A stretch of 64,000 nucleotides of DNA from a virus (IMGVR_UViG_3300045051_000365:1-64000); one strand, 5' to 3'. Counted from the stretch's first letter, positions 2,202-43,992 are shown. Notes: a model not told the origin generated them from the letters alone. Numbers and translations are program-made.

Positions 2202-2352
2202 AGTTACGGGGAGATTACTCTTGTAGTATTCCCCTACAAGAAAGTTTCTGTTAGGATTAGTCCTAGATTCTCTCTTCTAGGGGATCGGAAACCCAATAAA
2301 AAAACTCGCGGTGAGCGAGTTCTCTAATTCCAATCAAAAACTTTATGTTCTT

Positions 2353-5199
2353 ATGACCTCAATACTAACACAGAACCGCGTCAAATTGCAACCCTGCCCC
2401 CATTGCGGGAACCGGAACGAGACTAATTACTGTTTCGGCTATACCTCGGACGAGGGAAATCTGCTCTCGGTGTGTAGACGGGGAGCCGATCCGGGCGATG
2501 GATGGGAGCGATCGAAAAAGTCCACTGGCACGGGCGAGCCGATCTACTATCTCAAGCGCGACAAGAAATTTTCAGAATTTAAAAAAGAGAAAACTACCCA
2601 CTACGCCTATCCCCCGCTACGGGACGGCACGATCGTCCGGGTGTACCGCAAGGATTACCGAGAGGGCGCGAACTGGAAAAAGGATTGCAGACAGCAACAC
2701 TCGAAAGACGGCGGGAAAACTTGGATCTGGAACCTACAGGGTATTGAATATAACGAGATCCCCCTGTACCGCGCCGATAGACTCGGGAAAGCGATCGCCG
2801 CGGGAACCCCGATCCTCGTGGTCGAGGGAGAGAACAAGGTAGAGAAATTAGAGGCGATGGGGTTTGTCGCTACCTGTAGCCTCGGGGGGGCGGGCAAGTG
2901 GCAAGAATCGCACTCGGAATTTTTGAAAGGGGCGAAATTAATTCTCTGCCCGGATCGCGATAATCCGGGAGTGAAGCACGTTGCCCGAATCTATCGAGAT
3001 TTTCCCGACGCGCGTTTCTTGTACGCCTATCCCGATTCCGTTCTCTGGAACCATCTGCCCGAGTCCGGGGGTTGCGATATTATCGACTGGATCGAGGAAA
3101 AGAAAATCTCGAAAGAGGAAATTCTAGCGGCCGTTGTCGATGCCCCGAAAGAGATCCGCGTCAGGGAACCCGTGAAGCCCGCGGAAGAAAATTTATTGAC
3201 GATCGAGGAAATCATCGCGGCGATCGACGCGGCGATCGAGCAACGCCTAACCCGCACCCAATGGGAAGCGAAGATCCACGGGTGGGCGAAAGCCTCGGGT
3301 AAAACACCGAACGACATCCGCGAACTGAAGAGAGCGAGGGAACGGGAACTAGAAGAGTCGGATCGGATCGACGCGGCGATCGGGGATTTCCTCAAGAACA
3401 GCCACTACCGGCAGAAAGAACTCGATATACACAAGATCCTCCCGCCGAAACTCGCGGAGGCACTAGAATCTCGGGCTAACACGATCCGCCAACCGTCGAT
3501 CCGGCTACTTCATTCGCTCTGGCCGGTCATGGGCGCGATCCTCGGTTCCCGGTTCGCGATTAATATGAGGACGTCGCGGAACTCTTCCGAGTGTTGGAAA
3601 GAATTCCCGATCTTTTACATGGCCGACGTAGATTATCCGAGCGGCGGGAAAACCACGACCCAAAAACAGATCTACCGTGTTCTCAAAGAGCGCGACCTGA
3701 TCGAACAGGATCGGATCGATCGCGAGTACGATCGCCTCGAACAATTAAAAGCGGAATGGGCGGAAATGACCCGCGACGAACGGCGCGAGAACATGACCAA
3801 CGCCGATGTTAACCCGCGCCTCTACGAGCGGGAACACTGCCGGGCGAAACGGTGGGTGTACGACGAGGGAACGCTAGACGCGATTCTCAAAACCTCCTCC
3901 CTACAATCCCGATGGCAGGGCGCGGTATGGCTCGCCGACGAACTGACCGGATTATTCGACGGGATGAACCAGTACAAATCGGGCGGGAAAGGTAGCGATC
4001 GACAAAGGCTATTATCCGCGTGGAACGATCCCTTGCAGTTTACTTTTGACCGGGTGAACCGCGAGAACCGTTATACCTTGAACGGTCAAACCCTCAACGT
4101 TCTCGGGGGGATACAGATCGGGAAATTGCAGAAATACCTCGATCTTTCCGATGACGTTGACGGGCTAGTTTCCCGGTTTCACTTCCTGATTAACGAACCA
4201 CTCGATCCCGTTCCCGGTCGCCCGCCGATGGACATGAACTCGATCGAGTCCCTAATCCTAGACGCGTTCAATCGGGTGAACGGTATCGATCTAGAGGTCG
4301 GGGAGAACGGGGTAGAGCGCAACGATCTTTGGTTCACCGAGAAGGGCGAGAATTTCGCTTGGGATCTCAACTATCGCTATAACAATCTCGTCAAGTTGAA
4401 CCGCTCGAAAAATCCCTCGCTGTCCGCGTATGTCGGGAAGCAGATGAAAATGTTTTTACGGTTCGCGCTCTCGATCCATCTATTGAACTGGATCTACGAT
4501 CCCGAACATACCGACCTCTACCGAATTCCCGTGCAGACCGCGGCTAAGGCGGCCGCCGTGACCGACTTCTATATCAATCAATTTCTCGCCATTCAGGGGA
4601 TTACCGGCGGCGACGACCAGAACCCGATTCAGGGAATCCTACATGAAATATGGGATCTCGTGAGAACGGCGGGCAAGATCACGACCCGCGAGATCCATCA
4701 AAAATTTCAGTCCCGCAAGATCGACGGACAGAAAATGAATTCCGCTCTCGCCCTCGAACTACTCGAACAATTACAGAAGGCCGGACACGGACGGTTAGAG
4801 GGAAAAACACTGCACTACCTAGAGCCAACGGCGATCGCCGTAGAGGAAACGGTATTCGAGGAAGAGGAAATTATTATCGAGTCTAGTGGTCAGGAGTCAG
4901 AATTCAGGAGTCAGGAATCAGGAGTCAGCGCTGAAGAACTCCCCTCGGTTTACAGCGCGGACGGAACCCATATTGACGCACTACCCGATTACGAGCGGCA
5001 GGAAGTTTTGATCCGAACCGCGGAACCGGCCGACGCGGGGGGCGAAATTATTCCAACCCGCACGATCGCCCGGATCGTGGGGATAACTTTCGACACGATC
5101 GGGAACTGGCTGATCGAGGCGGAAACCCGATTCGGGGAAACCCTGAACCGATTTACATTGCCCTTCGGCAGTTGCTACGTGAACGACGTGGGAACGTGA
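2353..5199 (+). CDS. Primase-helicase (Zn finger, TOPRIM, DUF3987-like P-loop domain, C-terminal wHTH)
   Basis: CPHC, VVEGENK and CPDRD TOPRIM motifs, PSGGKT Walker A, ADELTG Walker B; start at 2353 or 2311. Confidence 0.85.
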   Translation: MTSILTQNRVKLQPCPHCGNRNETNYCFGYTSDEGNLLSVCRRGADPGDGWERSKKSTGTGEPIYYLKRDKKFSEFKKEKTTHYAYPPLRDGTIVRVYRKDYREGANWKKDCRQQHSKDGGKTWIWNLQGIEYNEIPLYRADRLGKAIAAGTPILVVEGENKVEKLEAMGFVATCSLGGAGKWQESHSEFLKGAKLILCPDRDNPGVKHVARIYRDFPDARFLYAYPDSVLWNHLPESGGCDIIDWIEEKKISKEEILAAVVDAPKEIRVREPVKPAEENLLTIEEIIAAIDAAIEQRLTRTQWEAKIHGWAKASGKTPNDIRELKRARERELEESDRIDAAIGDFLKNSHYRQKELDIHKILPPKLAEALESRANTIRQPSIRLLHSLWPVMGAILGSRFAINMRTSRNSSECWKEFPIFYMADVDYPSGGKTTTQKQIYRVLKERDLIEQDRIDREYDRLEQLKAEWAEMTRDERRENMTNADVNPRLYEREHCRAKRWVYDEGTLDAILKTSSLQSRWQGAVWLADELTGLFDGMNQYKSGGKGSDRQRLLSAWNDPLQFTFDRVNRENRYTLNGQTLNVLGGIQIGKLQKYLDLSDDVDGLVSRFHFLINEPLDPVPGRPPMDMNSIESLILDAFNRVNGIDLEVGENGVERNDLWFTEKGENFAWDLNYRYNNLVKLNRSKNPSLSAYVGKQMKMFLRFALSIHLLNWIYDPEHTDLYRIPVQTAAKAAAVTDFYINQFLAIQGITGGDDQNPIQGILHEIWDLVRTAGKITTREIHQKFQSRKIDGQKMNSALALELLEQLQKAGHGRLEGKTLHYLEPTAIAVEETVFEEEEIIIESSGQESEFRSQESGVSAEELPSVYSADGTHIDALPDYERQEVLIRTAEPADAGGEIIPTRTIARIVGITFDTIGNWLIEAETRFGETLNRFTLPFGSCYVNDVGT
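4891..4928 (+). repeat. Heptamer tandem repeat CAGGAGT x5 (cyanobacterial STRR-like) inside the primase gene
   Basis: CAGGAGT CAGAATT CAGGAGT CAGGAAT CAGGAGT CAG. Confidence 0.8.
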
Positions 5200-6887: not shown

Positions 6888-7039
6888 TGGCGAGAGAGAA
6901 AGTAGTTATCTGGACTAATTTAGGCGAGAAGGGAAACACGAAAGGACTTATCCGCCAGATCGAGGAAAGAGAATCTTCGGAGAGGCTAAAAGCCCATTTG
7001 CTAAAGTGTAAAACTCATTTAAAGGAGTGGAGAGAATGA
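6887..7039 (+). CDS. Hypothetical 50-aa protein (not in ORF track)
   Basis: TAATG and ATGA coupling at its two ends; MAREKVVIWTNLG...EWRE. Confidence 0.6.
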   Translation: MAREKVVIWTNLGEKGNTKGLIRQIEERESSERLKAHLLKCKTHLKEWRE

Positions 7040-33073: not shown

Positions 33074-33167
33074 AAGAATATTTTCTCTGGAAGGCTAGAC
33101 AACTTCCATCATAGCACCCCGCCAGATCCCCGAATCTAGGCGGGGTCTCTGTTTTGGGCGTTTCAGT

Positions 33168-33845
33168 CTGTTAGGGGCGTTGGACGATGTTAAGAAACTG
33201 ATAACATCTCCGAACCCTCTCACCGCAAGCTTTTCGACGAAATGTTATGAATGTTCGCCCGATCTAGGAAAAAAGTAGGGACGGGAAAAAGCGGGGCGTG
33301 TTACATAAGTAGTATTTGTAATACATCGGACTCTACTATAGCGATCGCCGCGGGGGAGTTTACAAAACTTCACAATAAGACATCCCCGATCGGGTGTTGC
33401 GATGTCATGGGATGTTAGAGGGGTTCATAACACCCTGCAATTCTTTCCCCGTCTAGCTTGTAGAGATTTGTTATGAATGTTATGGCGATCTAGGGAAAAA
33501 GAGAGAGAGGGGATCGGGTAGAGCGGGGTCAACAGTGGAAACGTAGGGAATACGATCCGAGGATCGAGGTATAGGGAAAGTGATTAACATCAATAACAAA
33601 TTGATGAACTCTATATATATCAATACTTTTTCCCTGTTATAACAAACTCTAACGTCCCCTAACATCGATAACGTGGTTCCCCCGTACTATCCCCGTGATG
33701 GAGTGGCGAGGTCGTGAGGGAGAGATCGGGGGAAGATCGCTATACGGGAAAACGACATAACACACTAACAAAAAGTTAAAACTCTTTCTCTATCTATCTT
33801 TTCCCTGTTATAGACTCCCTAACATCTCCCTAACGTCCCTAACAT
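33168..33845. repeat. Cluster A: four TGTTA-N9/10-TAACA-N35/36-TGTTA-N3/4-TGTT elements (two forward, two reverse)
   Basis: Units at 33188-33256 (+), 33413-33482 (+), 33585-33654 (-), 33758-33824 (-). Confidence 0.85.
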
Positions 33846-34146
33846 TTCCCCGTACCTCGCTCTATACCGGAATCAGCCGATCGGGTCTTCCCTCTAAAGA
33901 CCGATCTCGTGATAATAGAGGGGTAATTCATTGGAGGTAGAGTTTCCGAGAGATTGACAGAGTACGCGTGAAATTGAATTCTCTTCTTGTTCCTCGGGGG
34001 ATCGACCGACCCCCCGATTTGTTTATCCTCTCTACCTCGCTAAAAATCCCCCTAGAACGCTCTCTAGGGGGATGGATAGGGAATAAGTTGTCTAGTGGAT
34101 TCGGGACACTCTGACGCGTTCTAAAGTCCCGATCGTCCGATCGCTA

Positions 34147-34884
34147 TTAACGGGCGGTACGGTAGGTATTTACTTCCGGTATTAAATTTCGGAGGATAGC
34201 GGAATTAATTCGGATCGGCTTGCCGTCATCGGTTATTAGAACCCATCGCTGAAACCGTTGATGTAAAATCCGAATATCGGGAATCCGCTTGTGATCTCGC
34301 TCGTATTTGTCCATGTACTCGGCGATCGCGTCGATCAGCTTCGCTCGCTGAATAGCGTTAGCCGAATTGGAGTTGTACGCGCTGGCCGTAGGGATTGACG
34401 AGAATTGAGAGATCGATTCGCTCGGTTGTTTCGAGTCCAACGCGAAACGCTCTCGCTCTACATCGGTTTTCGTGGTTTCTAGCCGGAGTTTCGCTATCTC
34501 TAGCTCTATCTTTGCGTTTTCTAGTTCGATCTTCAGTTTTTCGGTTTCCGACAATTCCTGTCGCTGTCCGTATTCCCCGGTTTTCCGGATCGAGGGGAGG
34601 ACTTCCTCGAAAACCCAATCTTGGAACTTTTCCGCGGACGGTAACTTGGAAGAAAAAATTAGTTGATAGATACCGGGTTCCTCTAGAACCGTTATATCAC
34701 GGAGCTTTCCGTCAAGTGTCTGGGTTTTACAGACACTTTTGTTTTTCTCTTTAACAAGTCGGTAAACAGCATCGGCGGGATCTTTATATCCCAACACGCG
34801 AGCTACATCGTTAGCGACGGGGCGATCGCCGACAAAACGGATCTCTTCGTCTTGAAACTGAAACAGTACAATATTGTTAGCCAT
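34147..34884 (-). CDS. Bro-N domain protein (antirepressor-like)
   Basis: VANDVARVLGY, EPGIYQLIFSSKLP.AEKFQDWVFEEVLPSIRKTG.Y. Confidence 0.92.
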   Translation of the reverse strand: MANNIVLFQFQDEEIRFVGDRPVANDVARVLGYKDPADAVYRLVKEKNKSVCKTQTLDGKLRDITVLEEPGIYQLIFSSKLPSAEKFQDWVFEEVLPSIRKTGEYGQRQELSETEKLKIELENAKIELEIAKLRLETTKTDVERERFALDSKQPSESISQFSSIPTASAYNSNSANAIQRAKLIDAIAEYMDKYERDHKRIPDIRILHQRFQRWVLITDDGKPIRINSAILRNLIPEVNTYRTAR

Positions 34885-34962
34885 TTTGACCTCTGTAGTA
34901 GGTTGACTTGGTGAGTCCCCCGCGGTTACGGGGGCATTTTATTATATTCCGAAAGTTTCTAT

Positions 34963-36546
34963 CTATCTCCCGTATCCCCTCGGCAATCCGCCCCTAAACT
35001 CGTTCACGGGGGTAGAGGATACAATCGGGGTCGCGGACTCCTCAGATCCCCCGAAAAATTCATTTTCAAGCGAGTAGAACGCGCCGGATAGAGAATCGAC
35101 AATATCGTTTACCGGCGGCGGTTTCTTGTTCCCGTCAAAACTCTGACACGCGTTCAAGAAACGGGTATTCCAGACAGCATCGCGGAGTAGATAGATCTGC
35201 CCTCTACTGGCCGCCGTGGCCGCGGGTATCGATCGGGTGAGTTTATCCCCTTGCGGTTTGATCGCCGCTACATCGTGATTCGGGTGATACTCGCGTATTA
35301 CATTGGTGATCGTGTTTTCCACGAATTTGCCGCTCGATCCGCCCTCCTCTTCCCACCGAACCGCGACGCTCTTGCCGTCTATCCCCGCGGTATTTTTCAA
35401 CATCAATTCAACCTCGCCGACTTTCTTCTGCTCGCATAGGTTATCGGCGACCACGTACACGAATTCCCGTACCTCTTTCCCGTCCGATAGTACGGACTTG
35501 ATACGCTCGTATTTATAGACGAGGGTTCCGGACGTGTAGCAGTGATAATCCTCCGCGTTCTCTTTCGCCGTGGCCGCCAGATCCCAAAAGCGAACTTTCC
35601 CGAGTAATTTCCAGTCCGCGGGGATATTATCGATAACGTGAAACCACGTCCGATCGAAGACGGAACCGTTTTCATACTTAATCTTCCAGTTGCCGTATAA
35701 AAGGCGTTCTCTCTCTACCGGGTGCAACGCTTCAAGGTTCGCGATATATTCGGGGTTAGTCTTTAGAAAAATCGGATTATCGTAGATCGTCGCGTTGATA
35801 AAGGTAAAGCTTTTCGGGCTAGACTTCGGGAATCGCGCGATCAGTTCGTCCTCGGTATCGCCCCAGACTAAAGACCCCCCCGATCGCACGAAGTAACGGA
35901 TTACCCCGCAACGATCCTCGATCGGGTATCCCGTTCTAGGGTCGATCCACCAATCGATCATTCCCGCGACCCACGAATCAGCGTCCGGGTTCATTGTTGC
36001 CCTAACTTTCGGCTTAATTCCTGACATCGATCGGTTACGGGATAGCAAATACCAGAACGCCTCGCCGTCATCGTCCCAATGAGTTAACTCATCCCAACAG
36101 ATTAAATTTACCTGCGCTCCCTGCCAAGCGAAAATATCTTTCCGATGCTGTAGATACCGGAAAGATATTTTCGCTCCCGATGGAAATTTCCAGTCGAACG
36201 GCTTTGTAATTAATTTTCCTCCTAGATCTCGGTAGATTAATTGTGATTCATCTGCTAGACCACCGGGGTTTGTTATCTGACTATAGGATATTCGGAAGAT
36301 CACCGCGTTAAAAAGCGGGTTATAGATAAACTCTTTTCGAGCGCAATAGGCGAGAAGATTTCTTGATTTTCCGGAGCCGGCCGCACCGCCGAAAAATACT
36401 ATATCCGCATCGGAATTAAAGAATATAGTTTGTTTTCCGGGTTGTGGCTCGGGATACCTGTAATCCGTCCTAGTCGAAAAGCGAGAGCTGTTTTCCTGTA
36501 CGCGATATAGGTTTTTGGGGCTGATTTTTTGTCTGTTTTTTAGCAT
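34963..36546 (-). CDS. terL: Terminase large subunit
   Basis: PQPGKQ, GGAAGSGKS, ICWDE, ATMNP, RFWDLAA, NDIVDSLSGA. Confidence 0.92.
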   Translation of the reverse strand: MLKNRQKISPKNLYRVQENSSRFSTRTDYRYPEPQPGKQTIFFNSDADIVFFGGAAGSGKSRNLLAYCARKEFIYNPLFNAVIFRISYSQITNPGGLADESQLIYRDLGGKLITKPFDWKFPSGAKISFRYLQHRKDIFAWQGAQVNLICWDELTHWDDDGEAFWYLLSRNRSMSGIKPKVRATMNPDADSWVAGMIDWWIDPRTGYPIEDRCGVIRYFVRSGGSLVWGDTEDELIARFPKSSPKSFTFINATIYDNPIFLKTNPEYIANLEALHPVERERLLYGNWKIKYENGSVFDRTWFHVIDNIPADWKLLGKVRFWDLAATAKENAEDYHCYTSGTLVYKYERIKSVLSDGKEVREFVYVVADNLCEQKKVGEVELMLKNTAGIDGKSVAVRWEEEGGSSGKFVENTITNVIREYHPNHDVAAIKPQGDKLTRSIPAATAASRGQIYLLRDAVWNTRFLNACQSFDGNKKPPPVNDIVDSLSGAFYSLENEFFGGSEESATPIVSSTPVNEFRGGLPRGYGR

Positions 36547-37282
36547 TGAACGTTAGCGATCGGGTTATTTTTGCTTTCTCTAGAACTTCTGGCTCGTGCA
36601 TCGCTTTAATAGCGTTCCAACAAACCTCGCCTTTTTTTCTTTTCCCATTATTCCCCGTTCTTTCGGCATAAGATGCAATTCCCCGTTCCCGCCTCGCTCT
36701 AGCGATCGTTCTTTTGCTTAAGCCAAATCTTTCCCCGATCTTATAATCTGGTTCGGTTCCGAGAAGATCGATAATTTCCTGACTCAATTCTATTTTATTC
36801 CATCCTCCCATCGGGGGCGGGATAGGTTTTTTTAGATTGCCACAAGGCGAAATTCCTCGGATCGTTCGCTGGTAGTTTACAGTTTTTGTCGAACATCCGA
36901 GTTTTTTCGCTAGTTTATTATCTGGCATTGTGCCTAGTAGATACTCGTATTCTTCCCATTCTAGGCTCGCGTTGTTTCCCGATCCCCCGTGTCCCGCGCT
37001 ACCCGTATTAGTCAGATCGAAATATTTCCCGTACTCGATCATCCATCGCTTTTCCGTCTCGATCGCTTTTTCTTTTTCTACCGCATCGATTTCGATAATT
37101 ATCGGACGATACCCTTTTTCCAGAATTTCTTTAATTTTTAATGCCTTTCGAGTATTTTTCTTTTTTCCGTCTCGAATATGATTATTCAGGCGATGCGTTA
37201 GTCTCATCGTGGTTCTACCCACGTAGAACGGGATACACTCGATCGGATCGATTAATATGTAAATTCGTGTTAAACTCTGCAT
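36470..37282 (-). CDS. Free-standing GIY-YIG homing endonuclease
   Basis: RIYILIDP...FYVGRT...RL..H, E..W, LTN; repeated LLGT.PD..A helical motifs. Confidence 0.8.
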   Translation of the reverse strand: MQSLTRIYILIDPIECIPFYVGRTTMRLTHRLNNHIRDGKKKNTRKALKIKEILEKGYRPIIIEIDAVEKEKAIETEKRWMIEYGKYFDLTNTGSAGHGGSGNNASLEWEEYEYLLGTMPDNKLAKKLGCSTKTVNYQRTIRGISPCGNLKKPIPPPMGGWNKIELSQEIIDLLGTEPDYKIGERFGLSKRTIARARRERGIASYAERTGNNGKRKKGEVCWNAIKAMHEPEVLEKAKITRSLTFNAKKQTKNQPQKPISRTGKQLSLFD

Positions 37283-37433
37283 GGTTGACCTACTCCCATA
37301 GGTTAACAAACAAACCGATGAGATCGTCACATCTCATCGGTTTAATTATAATTCAATTTCGGCGATAATTCTCGGTATTCGATTTGATCTTCGATCGGTT
37401 CTTAATCGACGCGCCGTTACGGATTATCACGAT

Positions 37434-37742
37434 CTATAACCAGTAAGTTTTCTCTTCTTTCTTGCCGTAGCGATCGACCTTGAATTTAATCGCGTCCTCT
37501 AGGGTATCGAATGTTGTTATTTCTTCCCACCGGACAAATTCCCACCATCCCCCGATCGTGAAAGTATCGCCCCCGCGGATAAAATCATCGATACATACAA
37601 TGACAGCGATCGGGAACATAAGAGAGTACCCGATCCGCTCGAATATATTTCTTTTCCGATAGAGAGTGAAAACTAATTTACCACCGCGATACTTGTCTTC
37701 TACACTCTCGATAACCTTGAACCTTCTATCGTGTTTCATCAT
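37434..37742 (-). CDS. Hypothetical membrane protein
   Basis: Coupled operon; one hydrophobic segment. Confidence 0.55.
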   Translation of the reverse strand: MMKHDRRFKVIESVEDKYRGGKLVFTLYRKRNIFERIGYSLMFPIAVIVCIDDFIRGGDTFTIGGWWEFVRWEEITTFDTLEDAIKFKVDRYGKKEEKTYWL

Positions 37743-37992
37743 TTTTCAACACTCCATAGTAAGTAAAATTCTTTCCCCGCTCCGATCGGATCTTCCCTTC
37801 CGATACCATCCGATCGAGATGTTTTTTAACCGTTTCGGGGCGACGCGTTCCCCATTGTAATCGCTTTAATATTTCGTACACGTCAAGGTAGTTAGAACGT
37901 CCATAATTGTCTAGGACAATAATTAGAACAGATTCGGGTACGTGTCTAAAGCGATCGACAATTCTATCGAGCAAGTCTTTAATTAACCGCAT
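37726..37992 (-). CDS. Winged-HTH-like small protein
   Basis: ETVKKHLDRMVSEGKI...FTYY. Confidence 0.55.
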   Translation of the reverse strand: MRLIKDLLDRIVDRFRHVPESVLIIVLDNYGRSNYLDVYEILKRLQWGTRRPETVKKHLDRMVSEGKIRSERGKNFTYYGVLKNDETR

Positions 37993-38281
37993 ACGTCCAC
38001 CTCGCCGTTAAAATTTTAAAATGCAAAAACGGGATAGCGAAATCTTTAAAATCTGTCGCTTTATCCCCGATCGCTTTCCTCGATCTTTTTGCGTGGATCT
38101 CCCGTACTTTTAAGGTAAATACTATCGCGTCGATCGGGATATAGTTACCGTCGAAATTATTCGCTAGATAAACGGCGAACCCTTCTAACAGGAGAGGGTT
38201 CTTATAGTGAATATCCGTCTCTAGTCTCGCTAGTTCAATCGCGAGAACGGCATTGTATATTTCAGCGGTATTCGCGTTCAT
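37979..38281 (-). CDS. Hypothetical protein
   Basis: Probable ATG at 38281 (MNANTAEIY). Confidence 0.55.
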   Translation of the reverse strand: MNANTAEIYNAVLAIELARLETDIHYKNPLLLEGFAVYLANNFDGNYIPIDAIVFTLKVREIHAKRSRKAIGDKATDFKDFAIPFLHFKILTARWTYAVN

Positions 38282-38469
38282 CTCGCGTAATTCTCCATAG
38301 CCCGACCTATTACCCAAAAGGGTTCTATTAGAGCGAACTCTCCCCGATTCGTGACGAGTAATTCCGCGTATCGATCGAGGCCGATCGATTCCCACGGGTA
38401 CAGATCCCCGATCGCGTCGTTGATAGCGATCTCGAAAGATAAGCGTTCTAAGGTGTTTAATTCGTTCAC
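38278..38469 (-). CDS. Hypothetical protein
   Basis: Coupled to the terS end. Confidence 0.55.
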   Translation of the reverse strand: MNELNTLERLSFEIAINDAIGDLYPWESIGLDRYAELLVTNRGEFALIEPFWVIGRAMENYAR

Positions 38470-39230
38470 TCTTCCTCCTCTCCCGTGATAACCGTGGGAA
38501 TCAGCACGTCATCATCGACTACCGCGGAATCCCTCACGATCGCCGCTATATCGTCGTCAACACCGGGGGCGATCGCCTCCTGTCCTACTAATTTTCCATC
38601 GGGATCGATCACCGCTAACCCGTTCTTTTGAATCACGTTTATCGCGTAGTCGAGAGTATCGAACCCCATGACTTTTTCAAGTACATCTGTCAGCGTTTTC
38701 GACATCGATAGCGCGTCCCGGTGCGACCAGTTCCCGTTCGGTTCGATCGTTAATTGTATCGGTCGGCCGCTCTCGTCTACCGAGGTCACGGTTCTACGGG
38801 AGATCGGGTAGTTTGTCATCGCCTCGATCTTGTCAAGACTTTTCATCGCGATTTTTAGCGTTCTCTCGCGGATTTCTGTCAGGACGTGATCGATATGTCC
38901 GTCTTGATCTTGTATTTTTTTTAACCAGTAAGCTCGCGCCCTTTCTTCCCATCGGTAATTCTTACAGGCGAGTATCCAGTCATCGGGTACTGTCTTAGCT
39001 CGCTTGAATTTCGTTTTCTCGATCGTTTCCCCGGCGGCCTCACCGCAATTAGAGAACGCCCGATTTAACGTCCTGTACCCGCTAGGGACGGGCAGATACC
39101 AAGTTTTAAAGCGTTCGTACCAATCGATCGACTCTAACGGTTGTTGTTCCCATACCGGGAAAGTCACGAGTTCGATCGTTTCCTCGTGAATCGTGTAAGT
39201 TCGTTTTCTGCCGCGTCGCGCTACTACCAT
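38466..39230 (-). CDS. Putative terminase small subunit
   Basis: WEQQPLES...F..Y, W......W.ERA.AY pattern, same strand and upstream of terL. Confidence 0.6.
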   Translation of the reverse strand: MVVARRGRKRTYTIHEETIELVTFPVWEQQPLESIDWYERFKTWYLPVPSGYRTLNRAFSNCGEAAGETIEKTKFKRAKTVPDDWILACKNYRWEERARAYWLKKIQDQDGHIDHVLTEIRERTLKIAMKSLDKIEAMTNYPISRRTVTSVDESGRPIQLTIEPNGNWSHRDALSMSKTLTDVLEKVMGFDTLDYAINVIQKNGLAVIDPDGKLVGQEAIAPGVDDDIAAIVRDSAVVDDDVLIPTVITGEEEE

Positions 39231-39275
39231 CGGATAGGATAAAGTGTTTTTATAAGTTTACCTGACAATTCAAGT

Positions 39276-39884
39276 ATGACAGATAAATCCGATAAGTTAT
39301 CGATCGAGTATCGCCGTCTCTCCGATCTCGTTCCACTGAAAAGTAATAGCAAAAAACACGCGACCGAGAACACGATCGCTCTTATCCTAGAGTTCGGTTT
39401 TAAAGACCCGATCGGCATCGATCCGAGCTTAAACGGCGGAAAAGGCGGAATTACCGAAGGACACGATCGACGTGCCGCATTATTAGAGATTAAAAAACGC
39501 GATATTCCCGCGCCTCGGGGAATTATCCTCGATAAAGACGGAGAATGGATGGTTCCTGTTTTAATCGGGATACATTTAGAATCTGAACCGAAAGCGATTA
39601 AATACTCAGTCCTACACAATCACAGTACAATCCGGGGCGCGGGACTCGATCCGATCGATGAACTGAAACTATTCGATCGGGATCTGTTACTCGAACAAGC
39701 GGAATATCTCGATACTCACGGGGAAGACCTCGGGGCGATCGGGGATTTAAACACGATTCTCGAAACGTTAAACGCGGGAGACGGGGAAAGCGATGAAGAA
39801 ATTCCCGACGATAACCGCAATATAGACGAGGAAAGTTTAGGCGAGACGAAACACGAATGCCCTAACTGTAAATTCCGGTGGTAA
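39276..39884 (+). CDS. ParB/Srx-like protein
   Basis: N.KKH...I.EFGF.DPI...GHDRRAA; C-terminal CPNC; precedes a methylase. Confidence 0.7.
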   Translation: MTDKSDKLSIEYRRLSDLVPLKSNSKKHATENTIALILEFGFKDPIGIDPSLNGGKGGITEGHDRRAALLEIKKRDIPAPRGIILDKDGEWMVPVLIGIHLESEPKAIKYSVLHNHSTIRGAGLDPIDELKLFDRDLLLEQAEYLDTHGEDLGAIGDLNTILETLNAGDGESDEEIPDDNRNIDEESLGETKHECPNCKFRW

Positions 39885-39889
39885 GGACT

Positions 39890-40915
39890 ATGAGTGAATG
39901 GACGTTTCACCCGCGACCACAAACGAAACCTGTAACGGTAAGAGAAGCGTTCGCGGGATTGGACGAAAACGAACCCTGCCCGATCGCTATACCCGAATGG
40001 ATGCGGAAAGTAGCGGGCGAGATGGTAGCCGGGGATTTTAACAGCGATCGGATCAAGCCGATCATCGCGAAGTACAAAAATGGAAAAACGGGCGGTTTTA
40101 TGGCTATTAAGCTGTTATCGTGGGACAAACCATCTTGTACCTTAATTAAATTTAAAAATTGGGAAGCGGGCGGCATAATTCACCCGAACCGAAAGCGATT
40201 CGTTAACGAGCGGGAACTAGCCAGACTCGCGAGCTTTCCCGATGACTTTATATTCCCGCCGTCCCTCGGATTTAAAAACGTTATCGAGCGCGTCGGAAAT
40301 TGCGTACCGCCGTTGCTAATGAAAGCGATCGCCGAAAATTTACGCTTATCCCCGTTCCTACAAGATACCGATCGGCCGACCGTTATCGATACCTTTTCCG
40401 GTTGTGGGGGAAGTTCCCTCGGACTCCATCTCGCGGGATACGATGAACGGTTAGCGGTCGAGTGGGATAACAAGGCGGCCGCGACCTACCGATCGAACTT
40501 TCCCGACGTACCGCTCTATCACGGGGATATAAAAGAACTGTCCCCCGATCGGGCCGTAGAATTATCGGGAGTGAAACCGGGCGACCTCGATCTATTCACC
40601 GGTTCCCCGCCGTGTCAGGGCTTCTCGGTATCCGGTAAGCGCGAACTGCACGACGATCGCAATCAGCTGTTCCGCGAGTATTGCCGGTTACTGGACGCGT
40701 TTAAACCGAAAGCTTTCGTGATGGAAAATGTCAAAGGAATGATCTCCGGACACATGAAACCGATCGCTCTCTCTATATATAGTGAACTCCGATCGTGCGG
40801 TTACGAGGTACGGGGGCAAGTGTTGAACGCTAAATACTACGGGGTTCCTCAATCGCGGGAACGCGTGATCCTAGTCGGGGTTCGGAAAGACCTAGTACAG
40901 AAGCACGATCTATAG
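39890..40915 (+). CDS. Circularly permuted DNA (cytosine-5) methyltransferase
   Basis: RELARL.SFPDDF and GNCVPP (IX/X) precede FSGCGG (I), SPPCQGFS (IV), MENV (VI), QSRER (VIII). Confidence 0.9.
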   Translation: MSEWTFHPRPQTKPVTVREAFAGLDENEPCPIAIPEWMRKVAGEMVAGDFNSDRIKPIIAKYKNGKTGGFMAIKLLSWDKPSCTLIKFKNWEAGGIIHPNRKRFVNERELARLASFPDDFIFPPSLGFKNVIERVGNCVPPLLMKAIAENLRLSPFLQDTDRPTVIDTFSGCGGSSLGLHLAGYDERLAVEWDNKAAATYRSNFPDVPLYHGDIKELSPDRAVELSGVKPGDLDLFTGSPPCQGFSVSGKRELHDDRNQLFREYCRLLDAFKPKAFVMENVKGMISGHMKPIALSIYSELRSCGYEVRGQVLNAKYYGVPQSRERVILVGVRKDLVQKHDL

Positions 40916-41061
40916 AGTCCTATCGATACCCGTCTATCCGAACTATAGAGAAAGACACAGCCAGAAAGTTTCAAGATTTTTTAGGGACGATCTCGCTCGG
41001 ATCGTCCCTATTCCTTTCGTAGCGAGCGTTTCGGGCTGAGAGGGGAGTGTTACCCCGTTAC

Positions 41062-41090
41062 TTGACATATCCAAAAACAGGCGGCATTAT
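41062..41090 (+). promoter_or_regulatory. Sigma70-like promoter of the early-gene array
   Basis: TTGACA-17 nt-CATTAT. Confidence 0.5.
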
Positions 41091-41096
41091 TAAGTC

Positions 41097-42143
41097 ATGG
41101 GAAAGCGAAACACCCAAACAGAAAACATTCAAAAGCGAGAGGACATTATGATTTCCATCGAACAAATTAAAGCTTGTGAAGTTTATTCCGAATTGCAAGC
41201 CGTAGGGAAGGAACTAAACATCGCTCACGAGGCGGGAATCAAGATAGTGGGAGTTTCTAAAGTCGCGCTACGGGAATCGATCGTTAGCTGGATCGAGAAC
41301 AATCTAGTAAACGTATTAGAAACTATCGAAGATTCCGAACCCGATAGCGATGAACTGCAATCGGAAGAAAACGAACTAGAAACCGAACCAGAAACCGAAC
41401 CCGCTATCGAAGAAACCATCGAAACGGAATCCGAAGAAAACGAGAACGAAGTAGAAACCGAACCCTCTCCCGACGAACAAGCGAGCGATAAAGGAAAAAT
41501 CCTAGTAACTTCCGATCTTAAATACGAGATCGAGTATTGGGGAGAGAGTATTAAGTTCTTTGACTATCAAAAGAACGAGGTTTACAAAATTCCCGCGGAT
41601 CTGTTTAAAAGCCTTAACGCTCGCACGAAAGAAGTGTATTTAGTAGACTTTATCGAACACAACACACCCGTACATATTCCCGATATAGAGGAGTGGTTAT
41701 TCTCTAAAGGAATCGGGTACGGATGGACTGACACCGGACTCGTGAACATGGACTGTCGCTTATTCACGGACAGCGACAAATACTACGCGGTCAATAAAGC
41801 CGGGGAAATCGTGTCCACGATGGATAGTGCTTTCTTCAATCCTAAATGGTTTAAGTCTCAAGCTTGGGAGTCGTGGCTCGGGATCGAGAAAAAAGCCCGT
41901 AAATCTAGCGGGGGCGGCGCGCCGGGTTCGCGAGCTAATAATCCGAACGCCAAAACCCCGAAAGTTCCTCAAAAACTTGTCGATTTTATGCGGGAAAAAC
42001 CGCGAACCGTTAGCGAAATGATGGAATTAATGGGATGGAATTACCATAACGCGAGAAATTATCTCAGCTATATCAAGTGGAATGGAATGACCTTGGTTTC
42101 CGAGGGTAAAGGCGAAACGAGAACCCATCACATCGTAGGCTAG
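41097..42143 (+). CDS. Hypothetical protein with acidic linker and C-terminal wHTH
   Basis: ETEP-rich tract; RTVSEMMELMGW...ARNYLS; alternative start at 41148. Confidence 0.7.
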   Translation: MGKRNTQTENIQKREDIMISIEQIKACEVYSELQAVGKELNIAHEAGIKIVGVSKVALRESIVSWIENNLVNVLETIEDSEPDSDELQSEENELETEPETEPAIEETIETESEENENEVETEPSPDEQASDKGKILVTSDLKYEIEYWGESIKFFDYQKNEVYKIPADLFKSLNARTKEVYLVDFIEHNTPVHIPDIEEWLFSKGIGYGWTDTGLVNMDCRLFTDSDKYYAVNKAGEIVSTMDSAFFNPKWFKSQAWESWLGIEKKARKSSGGGAPGSRANNPNAKTPKVPQKLVDFMREKPRTVSEMMELMGWNYHNARNYLSYIKWNGMTLVSEGKGETRTHHIVG

Positions 42144-42207
42144 TCTATCACCGGGGATCACCCGATCCCCTCTCTAGTAAACCTTAATCAATCAATGGAG
42201 TTTAATT

Positions 42208-42372
42208 ATGTTCGCTGTAATTCTCTTGACCGACGCGCATTATGAACAGATTGGCAGAATTATCGATCTCTATTTCTGCCCGGTATCCGAGAAACGAGAG
42301 TACAAAGTAATTCTAGAAAACGGCACGGTAGTTTATTGCGAAGCCGATGATCTAATTCCCGTACTGCTATAA
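42208..42372 (+). CDS. 54-aa hypothetical protein (not in ORF track)
   Basis: GGAGT RBS; MFAVILLTD...DDLIPVLL. Confidence 0.6.
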   Translation: MFAVILLTDAHYEQIGRIIDLYFCPVSEKREYKVILENGTVVYCEADDLIPVLL

Positions 42373-42425
42373 ATCCCCTCGCTTTTGAGTCCTAATCACA
42401 TCAATCATTCAATGGAGTAAAGGCG

Positions 42426-42581
42426 ATGATCGACTATATCGAGTGTTACAACTTTGAAGTTTATTCGGATAATGTGATTGTCGGATACGTCCGGACAGAA
42501 GCGGATATGAGACAGTTTAAATCGATTTATCAATCCCCGTTCTCTCCCGCTATATTTTCCCTAGCTTGTCCGCTTAAATAA
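42426..42581 (+). CDS. 51-aa hypothetical protein (not in ORF track)
   Basis: GGAGT RBS in the shared leader. Confidence 0.55.
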   Translation: MIDYIECYNFEVYSDNVIVGYVRTEADMRQFKSIYQSPFSPAIFSLACPLK

Positions 42582-42637
42582 TCTCCCGATCCGCTTTTTG
42601 AATCCTAGTAAAAACATCAATTATTTCGGAGTAAATC

Positions 42638-42985
42638 ATGTCTGAAACAAAAAAAGAATTCCGTAAGTTATTTTCCAGTATCGCAAAATCCCACCGATTA
42701 AAAGCTGTAGATTTTTACGTTACCGGGGAGTATGTCGCGTTCCCAACTACTTACCTAGTCAGTGAGACATTAGAGGCGTTTAAAGCACTAGGTATCGAGG
42801 CTAAATATCTTTACATCATCGGAGTATCGGTAAAAAAAGAAGAACTGAAAAAAGTAGGAATAGATCTACCCGTGGGAACATATTTCATTCCTACCGACAC
42901 TCGGAAACCGATCGCGAAAAAACAATGGGTAAAAATTGTCGATTCGGAATACTACGCGGATATGTACCCGCGAGGTAGCGTGTAA
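42638..42985 (+). CDS. Hypothetical protein
   Basis: GGAGT RBS; terminator at 43011-43035. Confidence 0.65.
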   Translation: MSETKKEFRKLFSSIAKSHRLKAVDFYVTGEYVAFPTTYLVSETLEAFKALGIEAKYLYIIGVSVKKEELKKVGIDLPVGTYFIPTDTRKPIAKKQWVKIVDSEYYADMYPRGSV

Positions 42986-43132
42986 AATTCCCACCGCTAA
43001 CCGAACACGGCCGCCGATCGCCCCGGCGGTTTTTTCGTATCTCCCTTGTAGTATGTCTGTAGCGAGGCGTAGGGAAAATAGGGACGGGATAGAGGGGATC
43101 GGGAGGGAGAAGAGAGAGAAAAAAGTTATTCC

Positions 43133-43490
43133 TGTTAATGAGTGTTAGGAGAGTTAATAACATTCTCTATCCCTCTCTACGTCGATGTTCTAGCTTTTTG
43201 TTATTGATGTTAGGGCGATTCCCGTGACTTCGTTTCCCCGTGTATATCTCTCCCGATCCCCTCGAAAATAGCTTCTATCCCTATCCTCTCTATTCCCTCG
43301 ATAGAATCTATATCCCGATCGCTTATCGTGTCTCTACGTTCGTTCTTATGGACGGGTTCGGTTATTCCTGTTCCGATCCATTCTTTCCCTCGGATCGGCT
43401 AAACATTCATAACAAATCGCTGTAATCGTTACAGGATAAGACTTTCAGGGTGTTATTGACTCCCTAACATTCCCCCGATCCCGATAACAG
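43133..43490. repeat. Cluster B: two convergent copies of the same TGTTA/TAACA element
   Basis: Units at 43143-43212 (+) and 43401-43469 (-), with the same spacing as cluster A. Confidence 0.85.
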
Positions 43491-43622
43491 GGGATAGATA
43501 GAGAAAAATCTATAGATACTATAGAAAAACTTGTAGAGAAAACTTTAAGGATTTTACTTGACAACTTAAGTAATTTACAGGATGATAGTTTGTGTCAGGA
43601 CAAACAAGCGAGAGGAAACAAG

Positions 43623-43904
43623 ATGAACGAAGTACAGGAACTTCAAGTTTCAAGTCTAATGCCGGGGATTTATGTTATCGGCGTACTAAACGCCGATAAT
43701 CCTAAGCTCGCCCCGTCGCTTTTAAAAATGTTCGTGGGCGAGAACGGGATCGAGATCTATTGGGAAGACTACCCCACGGGGAATAACGGGAAAGGAAATA
43801 AAAAATTCAATTGTTTCGACGCGATCGCTCATTCTCATATTGCGACTATCCCCGTGCATCGAGAAAACTTTACGCCGGTATTTATTACTGGTTCCAATGA
43901 ATAA
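43623..43904 (+). CDS. Hypothetical protein
   Basis: GAGG RBS; promoter-like CTTGACAACTTAAG at 43557. Confidence 0.6.
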   Translation: MNEVQELQVSSLMPGIYVIGVLNADNPKLAPSLLKMFVGENGIEIYWEDYPTGNNGKGNKKFNCFDAIAHSHIATIPVHRENFTPVFITGSNE

Positions 43905-43992
43905 CCCTAGCCGATAGGCGGCCGCGCGGGGTTCGATTCCCCGCTAGGGATTGCCCGAATAGGGCAAATACTAGAAACATTCAACGGAGTAA

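What the first reader, a model, noticed from the sequence alone, without database searches (positions are those of the whole stretch)
33168..43490. Six spacing-conserved TGTTA/TAACA elements in two convergent clusters flanking the terminase region
Seen: a unit of about 70 bp, TGTTA-N9/10-TAACA-N35/36-TGTTA-N3/4-TGTT, at 33188+, 33413+, 33585-, 33758-, 43143+ and 43401-. The long spacer is 36, 36, 36, 35, 36, 36 nt, while its sequence differs between units. Extra TGTTA-like words lie on the outer side, often about 10 bp apart. The units fill the two longest non-coding regions, each cluster is head-to-head, and purine/pyrimidine-skewed tracts surround them. Conserved geometry with free sequence implies a multi-subunit protein-DNA complex. 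Hypotheses: a bipartite origin for the primase-helicase (like P4 ori1/crr iterons), packaging signals, or recombination sites that could invert the 9-kb segment between them. I do not recognise it as a described element.
Basis: partly seen in the sequence, partly recalled or inferred. Interest (0 to 1): 0.8.

Follow-up and report, generated by a model that had tools for sequence, protein, structure and literature searches.

The report
Repeated TGTTA-word modules in a cyanophage
A probable cyanobacterial phage carries several conserved non-coding modules built from short TGTTA words at fixed spacings, which look most like docking sites for a phage DNA-binding protein, perhaps replication origins, though no function has been shown.

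Summary
All six units exist, with long spacers of 36,36,36,35,36,36 nt. The strict pattern gives 5 hits against 0 in 100 shuffles (the sixth unit starts CGTTA). The 73.2-kb genome holds two more units beyond the window, so there are 8 units at three loci.

Each locus is a module: two convergent arms of about 90 bp, each with 5-6 TGTTA-like words about one helical turn apart, around a core of 104 or 190 bp. Two related IMG/VR phages keep three modules at the same map positions, with spacer 36 and cores of 103/189 bp, while the flanking genes are swapped. A more distant clade keeps the architecture with variant words (TGT[T/A/C][A/G]A) and a spacer of 33-34.

Gene presence across relatives argues against integrase, the 357-aa ParB-like protein, KilA-N, Bro-N, Gp3-like and DUF932 as the binder. 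The primase-helicase (predicted C-terminal winged helix) and a TerS-like protein remain.

My best reading (about 0.4) is replication origins or origin-like control sites, as in SPP1 oriL/oriR and P4 ori/crr. Rivals are operator arrays, pac sites and recombination sites. I found no sign of inversion. I class it as a new variant of a known kind.

The parts
33169..33255 (+). Unit u1, the outer left arm of locus c1. It has outer words at -19 and -10, then TGTTA-N9-TAACA-N36-TGTTA-N4-TGTT.
33299..33348 (.). Conserved block of about 50 bp between u1 and u2, starting TGTTACATAAGTAG. It is kept in G001 and present twice in G002. Its role is unknown and it may not belong to the module.
   Evidence: compared by eye
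33395..33481 (+). Unit u2, a B-type arm of the inner c1 module. Its spacer is 36 nt and not AT-rich.
33482..33585 (.). 104-bp core of the inner c1 module, purine-rich on the + strand. It holds a block resembling GATAAGCGAGGTC of c3.
   Evidence: motif compared by eye
33586..33673 (-). Unit u3, an A-type arm whose first word is CGTTA. Its spacer holds TTGATATATATAG, the third least stable 20-bp site in the genome.
33759..33844 (-). Unit u4, the outer right arm of c1. It is A-like, with a 35-nt spacer and N3 before the last word. It has three direct words at -20, -11 and 0.
43009..43031 (+). Terminator-like hairpin plus T-run that closes the operon entering locus c2.
43124..43211 (+). Unit u5, the C-type arm of locus c2.
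43212..43401 (.). 190-bp core of c2, pyrimidine-rich on the + strand. It is 189 bp in G001 and G002 and holds conserved blocks such as ATAGAATCTAT.
43402..43489 (-). Unit u6, the B'-type arm of locus c2.
43558..43586 (+). Sigma-70-like promoter P (TTGACA-17-GATGAT) just beyond c2. It is one of three copies of a block of about 45 bp; the others are at about 6600-6628 and, outside the window, about 67130. It neighbours the modules and is not part of the unit.
2311..5199 (+). Toprim-primase/DUF3987 helicase, the leading candidate for the protein that binds the words. The predicted winged helix is encoded at about 4624-4821 and is followed by a small beta domain.
38466..39230 (-). 254-aa TerS-like protein, the rival candidate binder. 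Its gene overlaps the start of TerL in G007 and is found in both clades.

Best explanation
The units are the arms of composite cis-acting modules. This genome has three loci: c1 at 33.2-33.8 kb with two nested pairs, c2 at 43.1-43.5 kb, and c3 at 66.75-67.0 kb outside the window. Each arm of about 90 bp carries 5-6 copies of a TGTTA-like word in a fixed register: direct copies at -20 and -10, an inverted pair TGTTA-N9/10-TAACA, a 36-bp spacer, then TGTTA-N4-TGTT. Two arms face each other across a core of 104 or 190 bp.

I read the modules as assembly sites for one phage-encoded, sequence-specific DNA-binding protein. The most likely binder is the winged-helix domain at the C-terminus of the primase-helicase (gene 2311-5199). 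That would make the modules replication origins or origin-like control sites of the SPP1 oriL/oriR or P4 ori/crr kind.

Proposed steps:
1. Winged-helix domains of helicase subunits bind the words (inferred).
2. The inverted words TAACA-N36-TGTTA bracket a spacer. In the 'A' arms the spacer is (TA)4-5 and among the least stable duplex in the genome, and melting would begin there (stability computed, melting inferred).
3. Oppositely oriented arms load helicase in both directions (inferred).
4. Arms without an AT-rich spacer (B and C) serve as auxiliary, pairing or fork-arrest sites, as proposed for gp38 at SPP1 oriR (speculative).

What is shown: the architecture, its conservation, and which proteins co-occur with it. 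No binding or initiation is shown.
For: Architecture beyond chance; reversed-pattern control 0; 0 matches in 20 mononucleotide shuffles.

Geometry is conserved while sequence is free. The spacer is 36 nt in 18 of 19 units. Cores are 104/190/104 bp in G000 and 103/189 bp in G001 and G002. The c2 and c3 modules align with only 1-nt indels, while the flanks carry indels of 16-44 nt.

The same map positions are kept in G001 and G002 even though neighbouring genes are replaced. A distant clade keeps the architecture with variant words and a 33-34 nt spacer: 7 matches in G007 and 5 in G003. Its A-arm core CCTATATATATCAA occurs 2-6 times per record in 5 of 5 records (4-6 in the three at least 91% complete), against 0 for the reversed control.

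The A-arm spacers rank 3rd and 9th among distinct least-stable 20-bp sites of the 73-kb genome, and 5th and 6th for 40 bp. The stretch just beyond c2 ranks 1st for 100 bp.

The primase-helicase has a conserved C-terminal H-beta-H-H-beta-beta segment with pLDDT 78-87. It matches winged-helix DNA-binding domains with best Z 8.4. That gives the domain order reported for P4 alpha and pRN1 ORF904: primase, helicase, winged helix (PMC2777425, passages read). The protein is found in 6 of 7 related module-bearing records; the seventh, G002, lacks that map region.

Other candidates are missing from module-bearing genomes. The 357-aa ParB-like protein is absent from G001 and G002. Integrase, KilA-N and DUF932 are absent from G001, where Gp3-like leaves only a 40-aa match and Bro-N only a 38%-identical homologue at another locus. 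The HTH protein at 68619 has no match in any of the four relatives.

Precedent in SPP1: two origins share direct repeats plus an AT-rich unwinding element and are both bound by gp38. oriR sits in a long intergenic segment of the late region, bracketed by transcription signals and next to moron genes (PMC6316719, passages read). This matches the setting here of terminator, module and promoter among variable genes.

The c3-type module always heads the early operon that leads to the primase-helicase, 3.5-8.5 kb upstream (distances worked out).
Against: No binding, initiation or replication data exist. The co-occurrence test cannot separate the primase-helicase from the TerS-like protein or from a 50-aa ORF (6887-7039), which are also present in both clades.

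No module lies in or beside the primase-helicase gene. Only A arms have an AT-rich spacer; B and C spacers are GC-containing, often with small palindromes. Three or four origin-like loci per 63-90 kb genome is many. No DnaA boxes lie in the modules: 0 of 22 one-mismatch matches, and the total is at chance.

Skew follows gene orientation and marks no origin. AT-rich low-stability sites also mark promoters such as P at about 6600, so the stability result does not exclude a promoter. The winged-helix match is generic. P4 alpha's own domain (1ka8) was not among the 50 rows listed, and Foldseek gave no hit at E <= 0.001. In G007 the c3 module lacks its B arm, so the paired form is not obligatory.
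Confidence: 0.4

Rival explanations
1. The modules are operator or insulator arrays. A phage (or host) transcription regulator binds the words and wraps the DNA between operons. This would control a promoter in the A arm and/or termination in the B arm, or the neighbouring promoter P.
For: Each module sits between an incoming terminator and an outgoing promoter. c2 and c3 lie 70-130 bp upstream of two of the three copies of promoter P. A spacers are easily melted, like promoters. Some B spacers are A-run/hairpin/T-run palindromes, for example in G001 and G007. Words on both sides of a 36-bp spacer could clamp a promoter.
Against: The sigma-70 scan finds 0 promoter-like sites in c1 and only P in c2. 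The most conserved A-core, (TA)n-CAA, cannot supply a TAnnnT -10 hexamer in either direction (read from the sequences). The orientation of modules relative to transcription flow and to P is not consistent: A is next to P in c3, but B' is next to P in c2. P at about 6600 has no module. The likely immunity region at 1818-1980 has no TGTTA words. The small HTH and RHH regulators tested are missing from some module-bearing genomes.
Confidence: 0.22
2. The modules are packaging (pac) sites. The TerS-like 254-aa protein binds the two arms and terminase cuts in the core, as at SPP1 pacL-pacC-pacR.
For: Two arrays of words flank a conserved core, as in SPP1 pac (PMC6316719, passage read). The TerS-like protein is present in both clades. 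Its nearest named Atlas clusters are small-terminase families, with a score of 0.90, which is a lead only. TerL is of the T4-like Terminase_6N type.
Against: There are 3-4 loci per genome, and c2 is inverted relative to c1 and c3. No module lies in or next to the TerS-like gene; the nearest are 2.3-3.9 kb away. The TerS-like model was too poor to test its fold, with mean pLDDT 41.
Confidence: 0.1
3. The modules are sites of recombination. They would be either targets of an unidentified site-specific recombinase or conserved 'linker' cassettes where homologous exchange shuffles gene blocks between phages.
For: The flanks of all three loci are the most variable parts of the genome. In the distant clade the B arm is replaced in four loci that agree by eye (L161, L175, L193 and the matching place in G007, so possibly one event). 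L166 has an insertion of about 150 bp at the same point of the core, just left of AAACGAACTAGACA. c1 in G000 is a nested double pair.
Against: G001 lacks the integrase yet keeps three modules. No other recombinase was seen in the ORFs I scanned. Gene order is collinear in the compared genomes, and no inversion or deletion joints appeared in the contigs. Linker homology alone does not explain fixed spacers with free sequence.
Confidence: 0.1
4. The modules are centromere-like or genome-organising sites. A ParB-like or other clamp-loading protein would bind dispersed sites, as with SopB-type sites scattered over some phage genomes.
For: Dispersed SopB-site copies in three phage genomes are mentioned in PMC3177203 (one passage read). 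Two ParB-like ORFs exist in G000.
Against: The 357-aa ParB-like protein is absent from G001 and G002. The 202-aa ParB-N protein is absent from the distant clade. A Walker-A pattern search found no ParA-like ORF. The genome has an integrase.
Confidence: 0.05
5. The modules are small non-coding RNA genes or mobile MITE-like palindromes.
For: The c3 module folds better than shuffles (z = -4.0 on the + strand, -3.1 on the - strand). It has a terminal-inverted-repeat look and c1 is nested.
Against: Rfam gives no hit at the gathering threshold. Both strands fold about equally, as expected of a DNA palindrome. The words are invariant rather than co-varying, while spacers differ freely between copies. 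Positions are syntenic across genomes at about 70-80% identity rather than scattered.
Confidence: 0.06

Closest known systems
Bacillus phage SPP1 oriL/oriR (origin-binding protein gp38)
   Same: Several loci per genome share initiator-binding repeats next to an AT-rich, easily melted stretch. One locus lies in a long intergenic segment of the late-gene region, bracketed by transcription signals and next to moron genes. A non-initiating copy is proposed to stall forks (PMC6316719, passages read; PMC3485210, abstract seen in the listing).
   Different: SPP1 uses direct repeats, a separate origin-binding protein and a DnaB-type helicase, and oriL lies inside gene 38. Here the words are 5-mers in mixed orientation with a rigid 36-bp spacer. 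The arms come in convergent pairs around a core of fixed length. No module lies in the initiator gene.
Satellite phage P4 ori / crr with alpha protein (primase, SF3 helicase, winged helix)
   Same: One polypeptide carries primase, helicase and a C-terminal winged helix (PMC2777425, passages read). Short words occur in both orientations at two separated loci that act together; this last point is recalled, not seen in any call.
   Different: The helicase here is DUF3987, not shown to be the P4/D5 type. Sequence search against PDB chains found nothing, and the structure search did not list 1ka8. The word, spacing and paired-arm architecture differ, and there are three or four loci rather than two.
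pac sites with two protein-binding arms around a cleavage region (SPP1 pacL-pacC-pacR; P1 pac, the latter recalled)
   Same: Arrays of short words on both sides of a central region, bound by an oligomeric small terminase.
   Different: Those sites are single and lie in or at the terS gene. These are multiple, lie in both orientations, and are kilobases from the TerS-like gene.
Archaeal origins with inverted ORB boxes flanking an AT-rich unwinding element, and SV40/papillomavirus origins with inverted pentamer or hexamer words (recalled, not from a call)
   Same: Short words in inverted orientation bracket the stretch to be melted. The initiator or helicase binds through a winged-helix or origin-binding domain and loads in both directions.
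   Different: The initiators are unrelated. Nothing here shows melting or double-hexamer assembly.

Membership tests
Iteron-type phage replication origin (SPP1 oriL/oriR, P4 ori/crr kind) | Clustered repeats of one short word in helical register | tested here: met
   There are 5-6 words per arm at -20, -10, 0, +14/15 (inverted), +55/56 and +64/65. The pattern gives 0 matches in shuffles.
Iteron-type phage replication origin (SPP1 oriL/oriR, P4 ori/crr kind) | Adjacent AT-rich DNA unwinding element | tested here: inconclusive
   A-arm spacers and the edge of c2 are among the least stable 20-100 bp windows of the genome. The AT run is only about 14-20 bp, and B and C arms lack it.
Iteron-type phage replication origin (SPP1 oriL/oriR, P4 ori/crr kind) | Genome encodes an initiator with a sequence-specific DNA-binding domain that co-occurs with the sites | tested here: inconclusive
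   The primase-helicase has a predicted winged helix. It is present in 6 of 7 related records, and the seventh lacks that map region. The TerS-like protein shows the same pattern.
Iteron-type phage replication origin (SPP1 oriL/oriR, P4 ori/crr kind) | Initiation of DNA synthesis at the site, or autonomous replication of a mini-replicon | not testable with these tools
   Only assembled contigs of DNA runs were available, and no RNA holder was listed.
Headful pac site | Single site in or next to the small-terminase gene | tested here: not met
   There are 3-4 loci per genome. The nearest is 2.3-3.9 kb from the TerS-like gene.
Headful pac site | Virion DNA ends map to the site | not testable with these tools
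   No raw virion reads were available.
attP of a tyrosine integrase (arm sites plus core) | One site per genome, dependent on and usually next to int | tested here: not met
   There are three loci. c3 is 4.4 kb from int. G001 has no int match but keeps three modules.
ParB/parS-type centromere (including dispersed phage sites) | Conserved ParB-type binding protein with a ParA partner | tested here: not met
   The 357-aa ParB-like protein is absent from G001 and G002. The ParB-N 202-aa protein is absent from the distant clade. No ParA-like Walker motif was found (pattern search only).
Structured non-coding RNA (Rfam family) | Match to a curated model, or covariation supporting one strand's fold | tested here: not met
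   There are 0 Rfam matches at the gathering threshold. Both strands fold about equally. The words are invariant, not co-varying. No formal covariation test was run.
MITE / insertion sequence | Near-identical copies at non-syntenic places with target duplications | tested here: not met
   Copies within one genome share only the words. The loci are syntenic in three genomes. Target duplications were not examined.
Sigma-70 promoter with flanking operators | Conserved -35/-10 at a fixed place in the unit | tested here: inconclusive
   The scan found 0 sites in c1 and only P in c2. A TACTTT-like hexamer is present in near-clade A arms but not kept in the distant clade (by eye).

The most novel reading that the evidence does not exclude
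Each arm, with its 5-6 phased words, is a docking platform for one hexamer of the primase-helicase: six winged-helix domains for six words. The convergent pair then assembles a head-to-head double hexamer around the core. That would be an SV40/papillomavirus-style or archaeal-style origin architecture in a tailed phage. The same modules would double as fork barriers and as the fixed boundaries at which this phage lineage swaps accessory gene blocks.
Probability: 0.12. Interest if true: 0.8.

Novelty: new variant of a known kind. Interest (0 to 1): 0.55.

Why it matters
Replication origins, packaging signals and other cis-acting sites are almost unknown for uncultured cyanobacterial phages. Here a whole lineage carries an unusually elaborate element with rigid geometry that can be recognised from sequence alone. 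That lineage comprises this genome, 10 IMG/VR contigs with the exact B-type pattern, and a more distant clade.

If the modules are origins, they give a testable model of how a one-polypeptide primase-helicase with a winged helix finds and opens DNA. They would also explain why the modules stay fixed while neighbouring genes turn over. If they are something else, such as operators, pac sites or exchange sites, they still mark the functional boundaries of the genome. They also offer a handle for finding relatives, for building mini-replicons, and for mapping phage replication in metagenomic time series.

Tried and rejected
Known relatives. Megablast of 33000-45000 against the phage and plasmid collections gave no match. 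TerL reaches at most 42% identity to cultured phages, and the primase-helicase has only partial hits. No annotated relative could therefore be used.

Prophage search. The B-type pattern gave 0 hits in genome contigs, so no host was named.

RNA and reads. tRNA and Rfam scans gave 0 hits. No RNA holder was listed for the stretch. The four DNA runs are kept as contigs only. One 68-kb contig covers 32500-44500 with no differences, but it may be the source. X2 laid nothing, X3 and X4 gave short pieces, and no joints appeared. Parts without cover mean nothing.

Other tests.
- GC and AT skew follow gene orientation only.
- DnaA-box search was at chance and gave no hit in the modules.
- The ParA motif search was negative.
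- Sequence search of PDB chains with the primase-helicase, the ParB-like protein and the 369-aa protein gave nothing significant.
- Foldseek on the C-terminal model gave no hit at E <= 0.001.
- The TerS-like model had mean pLDDT 41 and was not searched.
- The single-protein Gp3-like locus search found only close relatives.
- The 12-bp repeats inside ORF 41097-42143 were considered as an alternative iteron set. I set them aside because that ORF has no match in the distant clade.

Host-regulator lead. I recalled that the L-box of the cyanobacterial regulator RcaC is a TTGTTA repeat. Two searches and passages of PMC8256508 and PMC5737509 mention the L-box but not its sequence, so this stays an unverified recollection. 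Resemblances to NtcA, CRP, LexA, HLR1, Pho-box and chromosomal parS consensus sites were considered from memory. I rejected them on spacing or core letters; none was tested.

Literature. Searches for the words themselves, for cyanophage origins and for P4 crr iterons found no description of this element. Supplementary files were not opened. Subscription-journal papers, such as the P4 ori/crr work, were not available, and those details are recalled. A word search of earlier scan notes found nothing.

Full report
WHAT IS THERE. Reading 32900-34100 and 42900-43700 confirms six units of the form TGTTA-N9/10-TAACA-N35/36-TGTTA-N3/4-TGTT at the stated places and strands. The strict three-word pattern gives 5 matches in the window and none in 100 dinucleotide-preserving shuffles. 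The sixth unit (33586-33654, minus) begins CGTTA. The terminal word pair TGTTA-N4-TGTT gives 5 matches against a mean of 0.10.

The window is the first 64 kb of a single 73,200-bp contig. Scanning the whole contig shows a third convergent pair at 66751-66818(+) and 66923-66991(-). That makes eight units at three loci. TGTTA/TAACA is 18 times denser in the 1,433 bp of these loci than elsewhere: 36 of 134 words.

ANATOMY. Every unit has further TGTTA-like words at -10/-11 and/or -18 to -21 (8 of 8 units). An arm of about 90 bp therefore carries 5-6 words. Units come as convergent pairs around a core of 104 bp (inner c1), 190 bp (c2) or 104 bp (c3). At c1 a second pair (u1, u4) is nested outside the first.

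The arms fall into types by their spacer (by eye):
- A arms hold TTGATATATATAG or a near variant.
- B arms begin (C/T)CC(T/C)GAAA, and some have small palindromes.
- C arms occur only at c2.

After the last word both arms of c3 continue with CCCGATCCT(A/C)GAC, so the whole module is an imperfect palindrome. Both strands fold better than shuffles to about the same degree (z -4.0 and -3.1). That is what a DNA-level inverted repeat gives.

The cores are purine-rich on the strand read outward from the B arm. Those of c1 and c3 share a block around GATAAGCGAGGTC (by eye).

CONTEXT. The genome is a temperate-looking tailed phage. Its annotated genes include:
- TerL (34963-36546, minus);
- KilA-N and Bro-N genes on either side of c1;
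- a GIY-YIG endonuclease;
- ParB-N-like and C5-methylase genes;
- DUF932;
- a tyrosine integrase (71451-72563) and an Xre-type repressor interrupted by an IS605-type TnpB;
- a Toprim-primase/DUF3987 helicase (2311-5199).

The 369-aa protein has a DHH-phosphoesterase-like fold in the Atlas look-up. CGATCG (247 copies) and GATC (963) are strongly over-represented, which fits a cyanobacterial host. No close cultured relative exists.

Each module sits in a gap between operons. A terminator-like hairpin closes the operon entering c2. A near-consensus promoter block P follows c2 and c3. P is repeated at about 6600, 43558 and about 67130, and is conserved in relatives.

CONSERVATION. Of these, 15 are related to this genome by BLASTN at E <= 1e-20; the rest look like chance. 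A more specific B-arm pattern gave 14 stretches in 10 contigs. All 14 lie in related contigs. The same pattern found none in 185,579 species genomes.

Two near-complete relatives, G001 (64.5 kb) and G002 (63.5 kb), each have three convergent pairs, against 0 for the reversed control pattern. The pairs lie at the same map positions. Across the three genomes the spacer is 36 in 18 of 19 units found by the anchored search and 35 in one. One further G002 unit was missed by that search. Its 62-nt match implies a 37-nt spacer, counted by hand. Cores are 103/189/103 bp in G001 and 103/189 bp in G002.

Alignments of c3 and c2 have only single-base indels from the first to the last word, whereas the sequence just outside has indels of 16-44 nt. 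The genes next to all three loci are those that differ most between the genomes. KilA-N, Bro-N and Rha-like genes vary at c1. The 115-aa and 104-aa ORFs and DUF932 vary at c2. Two 66-aa ORFs, the 111-aa ORF and Gp3-like vary at c3; G001 has an ORF there that looks RecT-like by eye.

A MORE DISTANT CLADE. A search with an alignment of the 965-aa tail protein that precedes c3 found 61 loci, most at 62-65% identity. A search of those loci for the A-arm core, allowing one mismatch, found 13 distinct module sequences. They carry a homologous module with variant words: TTGT[T/A/C][A/G]AT in 8-mer notation. The geometry is word-N8-word(inverted), then a spacer of 33-34, then word-N3-word. This pattern matches 7 places in G007 (90.6 kb) and 5 in G003 (82.8 kb), against 0 in 20 shuffles each.

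The A-arm core CCTATATATATCAA, with up to one mismatch, occurs 2-6 times per record in 5 of 5 long records (4-6 in the three at least 91% complete). The reversed control gives 0. Left and right half-sites vary independently, for example TTGTTAAT or TTGTAGAT opposite the same ATCTACAA. That fits degenerate protein recognition better than base pairing.

In L161, L175, L193 and the matching place in G007, which agree by eye and may record one event, the B arm of the c3-type module is replaced. The breakpoint lies just left of AAACGAACTAGACA in the core. L166 has an insertion of about 150 bp at the same point. An A arm with half a core can therefore stand alone.

WHO COULD BIND. I used presence and absence across module-bearing genomes.
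- Absent from at least one complete-looking genome that keeps its modules: the 357-aa ParB-like protein (absent from G001 and G002), and integrase, KilA-N and DUF932 (absent from G001).
- Nearly absent from G001: Gp3-like leaves only a 40-aa match, and Bro-N only a 38%-identical homologue at another locus.
- The HTH protein 68619-68954 has no match in any of the four relatives.
- Confined to the near clade: the Xis-like 85-aa HTH, the DHH-like protein, the ParB-N 202-aa protein and the 348-aa ORF.
- CI and the small RHH-like ORF are not seen in G007.
- Found in both clades wherever that map region is present: the primase-helicase (6 of 7 related records; G002 lacks that map region), the 254-aa protein, a 50-aa ORF (6887-7039), and structural proteins.

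The 254-aa protein's gene overlaps the start of TerL in G007. Its nearest named Atlas clusters are small-terminase families, with a score of 0.90, which is a lead only.

The primase-helicase ends in two conserved domains after the helicase. The first is modelled as H-beta-H-H-beta-beta with pLDDT 78-87. It aligns with many winged-helix DNA-binding domains: best Z 8.4 over 85-86 residues, including the Fur DNA-binding domain and the C-terminal domain of an archaeal AAA+ ATPase. The second is a small beta domain with SH3/Sm-like matches at Z of about 6.5-6.9. The scores are of the size the tool warns may be generic, and P4 alpha's own domain was not among the rows listed. The order primase, helicase, winged helix is the one described for P4 alpha and pRN1 ORF904 (PMC2777425, passages read).

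HOW IT MOST LIKELY WORKS. The fixed register of the words fits the wrapping of about 90 bp of each arm around an oligomer that recognises the words. So do the rigid spacer and core lengths, combined with free spacer sequence. The inverted words TAACA-N36-TGTTA bracket the spacer symmetrically.

In the A arms the spacer centre is (TA)4-5. By nearest-neighbour energies the two strongest A spacers are the 3rd and 9th least stable distinct 20-bp sites of the genome, and 5th and 6th for 40 bp. The stretch just beyond c2 is 1st for 100 bp.

SPP1 offers a documented parallel. Two origins share initiator-binding repeats plus an AT-rich unwinding element. One sits in a long intergenic stretch of the late region, between transcription signals and beside moron genes. 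A proposed role of the second copy is to stall forks (PMC6316719, passages read; PMC3485210, abstract in the listing).

I therefore rank 'origin or origin-like sites for the primase-helicase' first, at about 0.4. The steps from binding to melting and helicase loading are inference. So is any role of the B and C arms, whose spacers are not AT-rich.

WHAT SPEAKS AGAINST, AND THE RIVALS.
- The data cannot separate the primase-helicase from the TerS-like protein.
- No module adjoins either gene.
- DnaA boxes are at chance and absent from the modules.
- Skew is uninformative.
- Low duplex stability also marks promoters.

An operator or insulator reading (0.22) fits the terminator-module-promoter setting. 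However, no conserved sigma-70 elements were found in the arms. The (TA)n core cannot give a TAnnnT hexamer. Module orientation relative to promoter P is inconsistent.

A pac reading (0.10) fits the two-arms-and-core shape. It does not fit 3-4 loci in both orientations lying kilobases from the TerS-like gene.

A recombination or exchange reading (0.10) fits the variable flanks and the shared breakpoint in the distant clade. But G001 lacks the integrase, the genomes are collinear, and no joints were seen.

Centromere, RNA-gene and MITE readings are each weak.

NOVELTY. I found no description of this element in searches for the words, for cyanophage origins or for P4 iterons, and no Rfam family. 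In concept it belongs with iteron-type viral origins and other word-array nucleoprotein sites. The particular architecture appears new. It combines mixed-orientation 5-mers, a rigid 36-bp spacer, convergent arms around a core of fixed length, several copies per genome, and conservation across two phage clades with a shifted word. I had reached the same count independently.

Noticed in passing
window 6600-6628, 43558-43586; genome about 67130 (L126 about 7130): A block of about 45 bp with a near-consensus sigma-70 promoter occurs three times: TTGACA-17-TAGGAT/GATGAT. Its -35 lies inside the palindrome CTTGACAATTCAAG. The block is also kept in G001, G002 and G007. It is probably a co-regulated early or middle promoter with its own operator.
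   Followed up: partly
window 33299-33348: A conserved block of about 50 bp (TGTTACATAAGTAGTATTTGTAATACATCGGACTCTACTATAG...) lies between u1 and u2. It is present in G001 and twice in G002 and could form small hairpins. Its role is unknown.
   Followed up: no
window 36470-37330 (minus): A GIY-YIG/HTH homing-endonuclease-like gene, together with small ORFs, sits between the TerS-like gene and TerL. It has no full homologue in G001 or G002. In G007 the TerS-like gene overlaps the start of TerL.
   Followed up: partly
window 1339-1818 (minus) and genome 72786-73199 (minus): The same 37-residue stretch of the repressor (VGAIQNW...DSFVT) is encoded at both ends of the contig, on either side of the TnpB insertion. 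The contig may join IS-containing and IS-free variants, or it may be a permuted circle.
   Followed up: no
window 41367-41464, inside ORF 41097-42143: Three tandem copies and one nearby copy of a 12-bp unit (AGAAACCGAACC) encode an acidic E/T/P repeat. The ORF is only partly conserved in G001 and G002 and is absent from the distant clade.
   Followed up: partly
genome 68981-70090 (L126 8981-10090): A conserved 369-aa protein downstream of c3 has a DHH/DHHA1 phosphoesterase-like predicted fold (Atlas TM 0.55-0.62). In G001 it follows an ORF that looks RecT-like by eye, in place of the Gp3-like gene. This suggests a recombination module.
   Followed up: partly
whole genome: CGATCG occurs 247 times, GATC 963 times and GCGATCGC 24 times in 73.2 kb, far above expectation. 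The phage also encodes two C5 methylases and one D12-class N6-adenine methylase.
   Followed up: no
L204 9524-10492 (G007): A HEAT/PBS-lyase-like repeat protein gene lies directly upstream of the B-less c3 module in the distant clade. It may be a phycobilisome-related accessory gene.
   Followed up: no
window 33957-34080: By eye there is a TTGACA-17-AATTCT promoter-like site followed within about 60 nt by a GC hairpin with a T-run. A second hairpin lies at 34050-34080 and is conserved at 82% in relatives. These could be a small transcript or the bidirectional terminators of the TerL operon.
   Followed up: no
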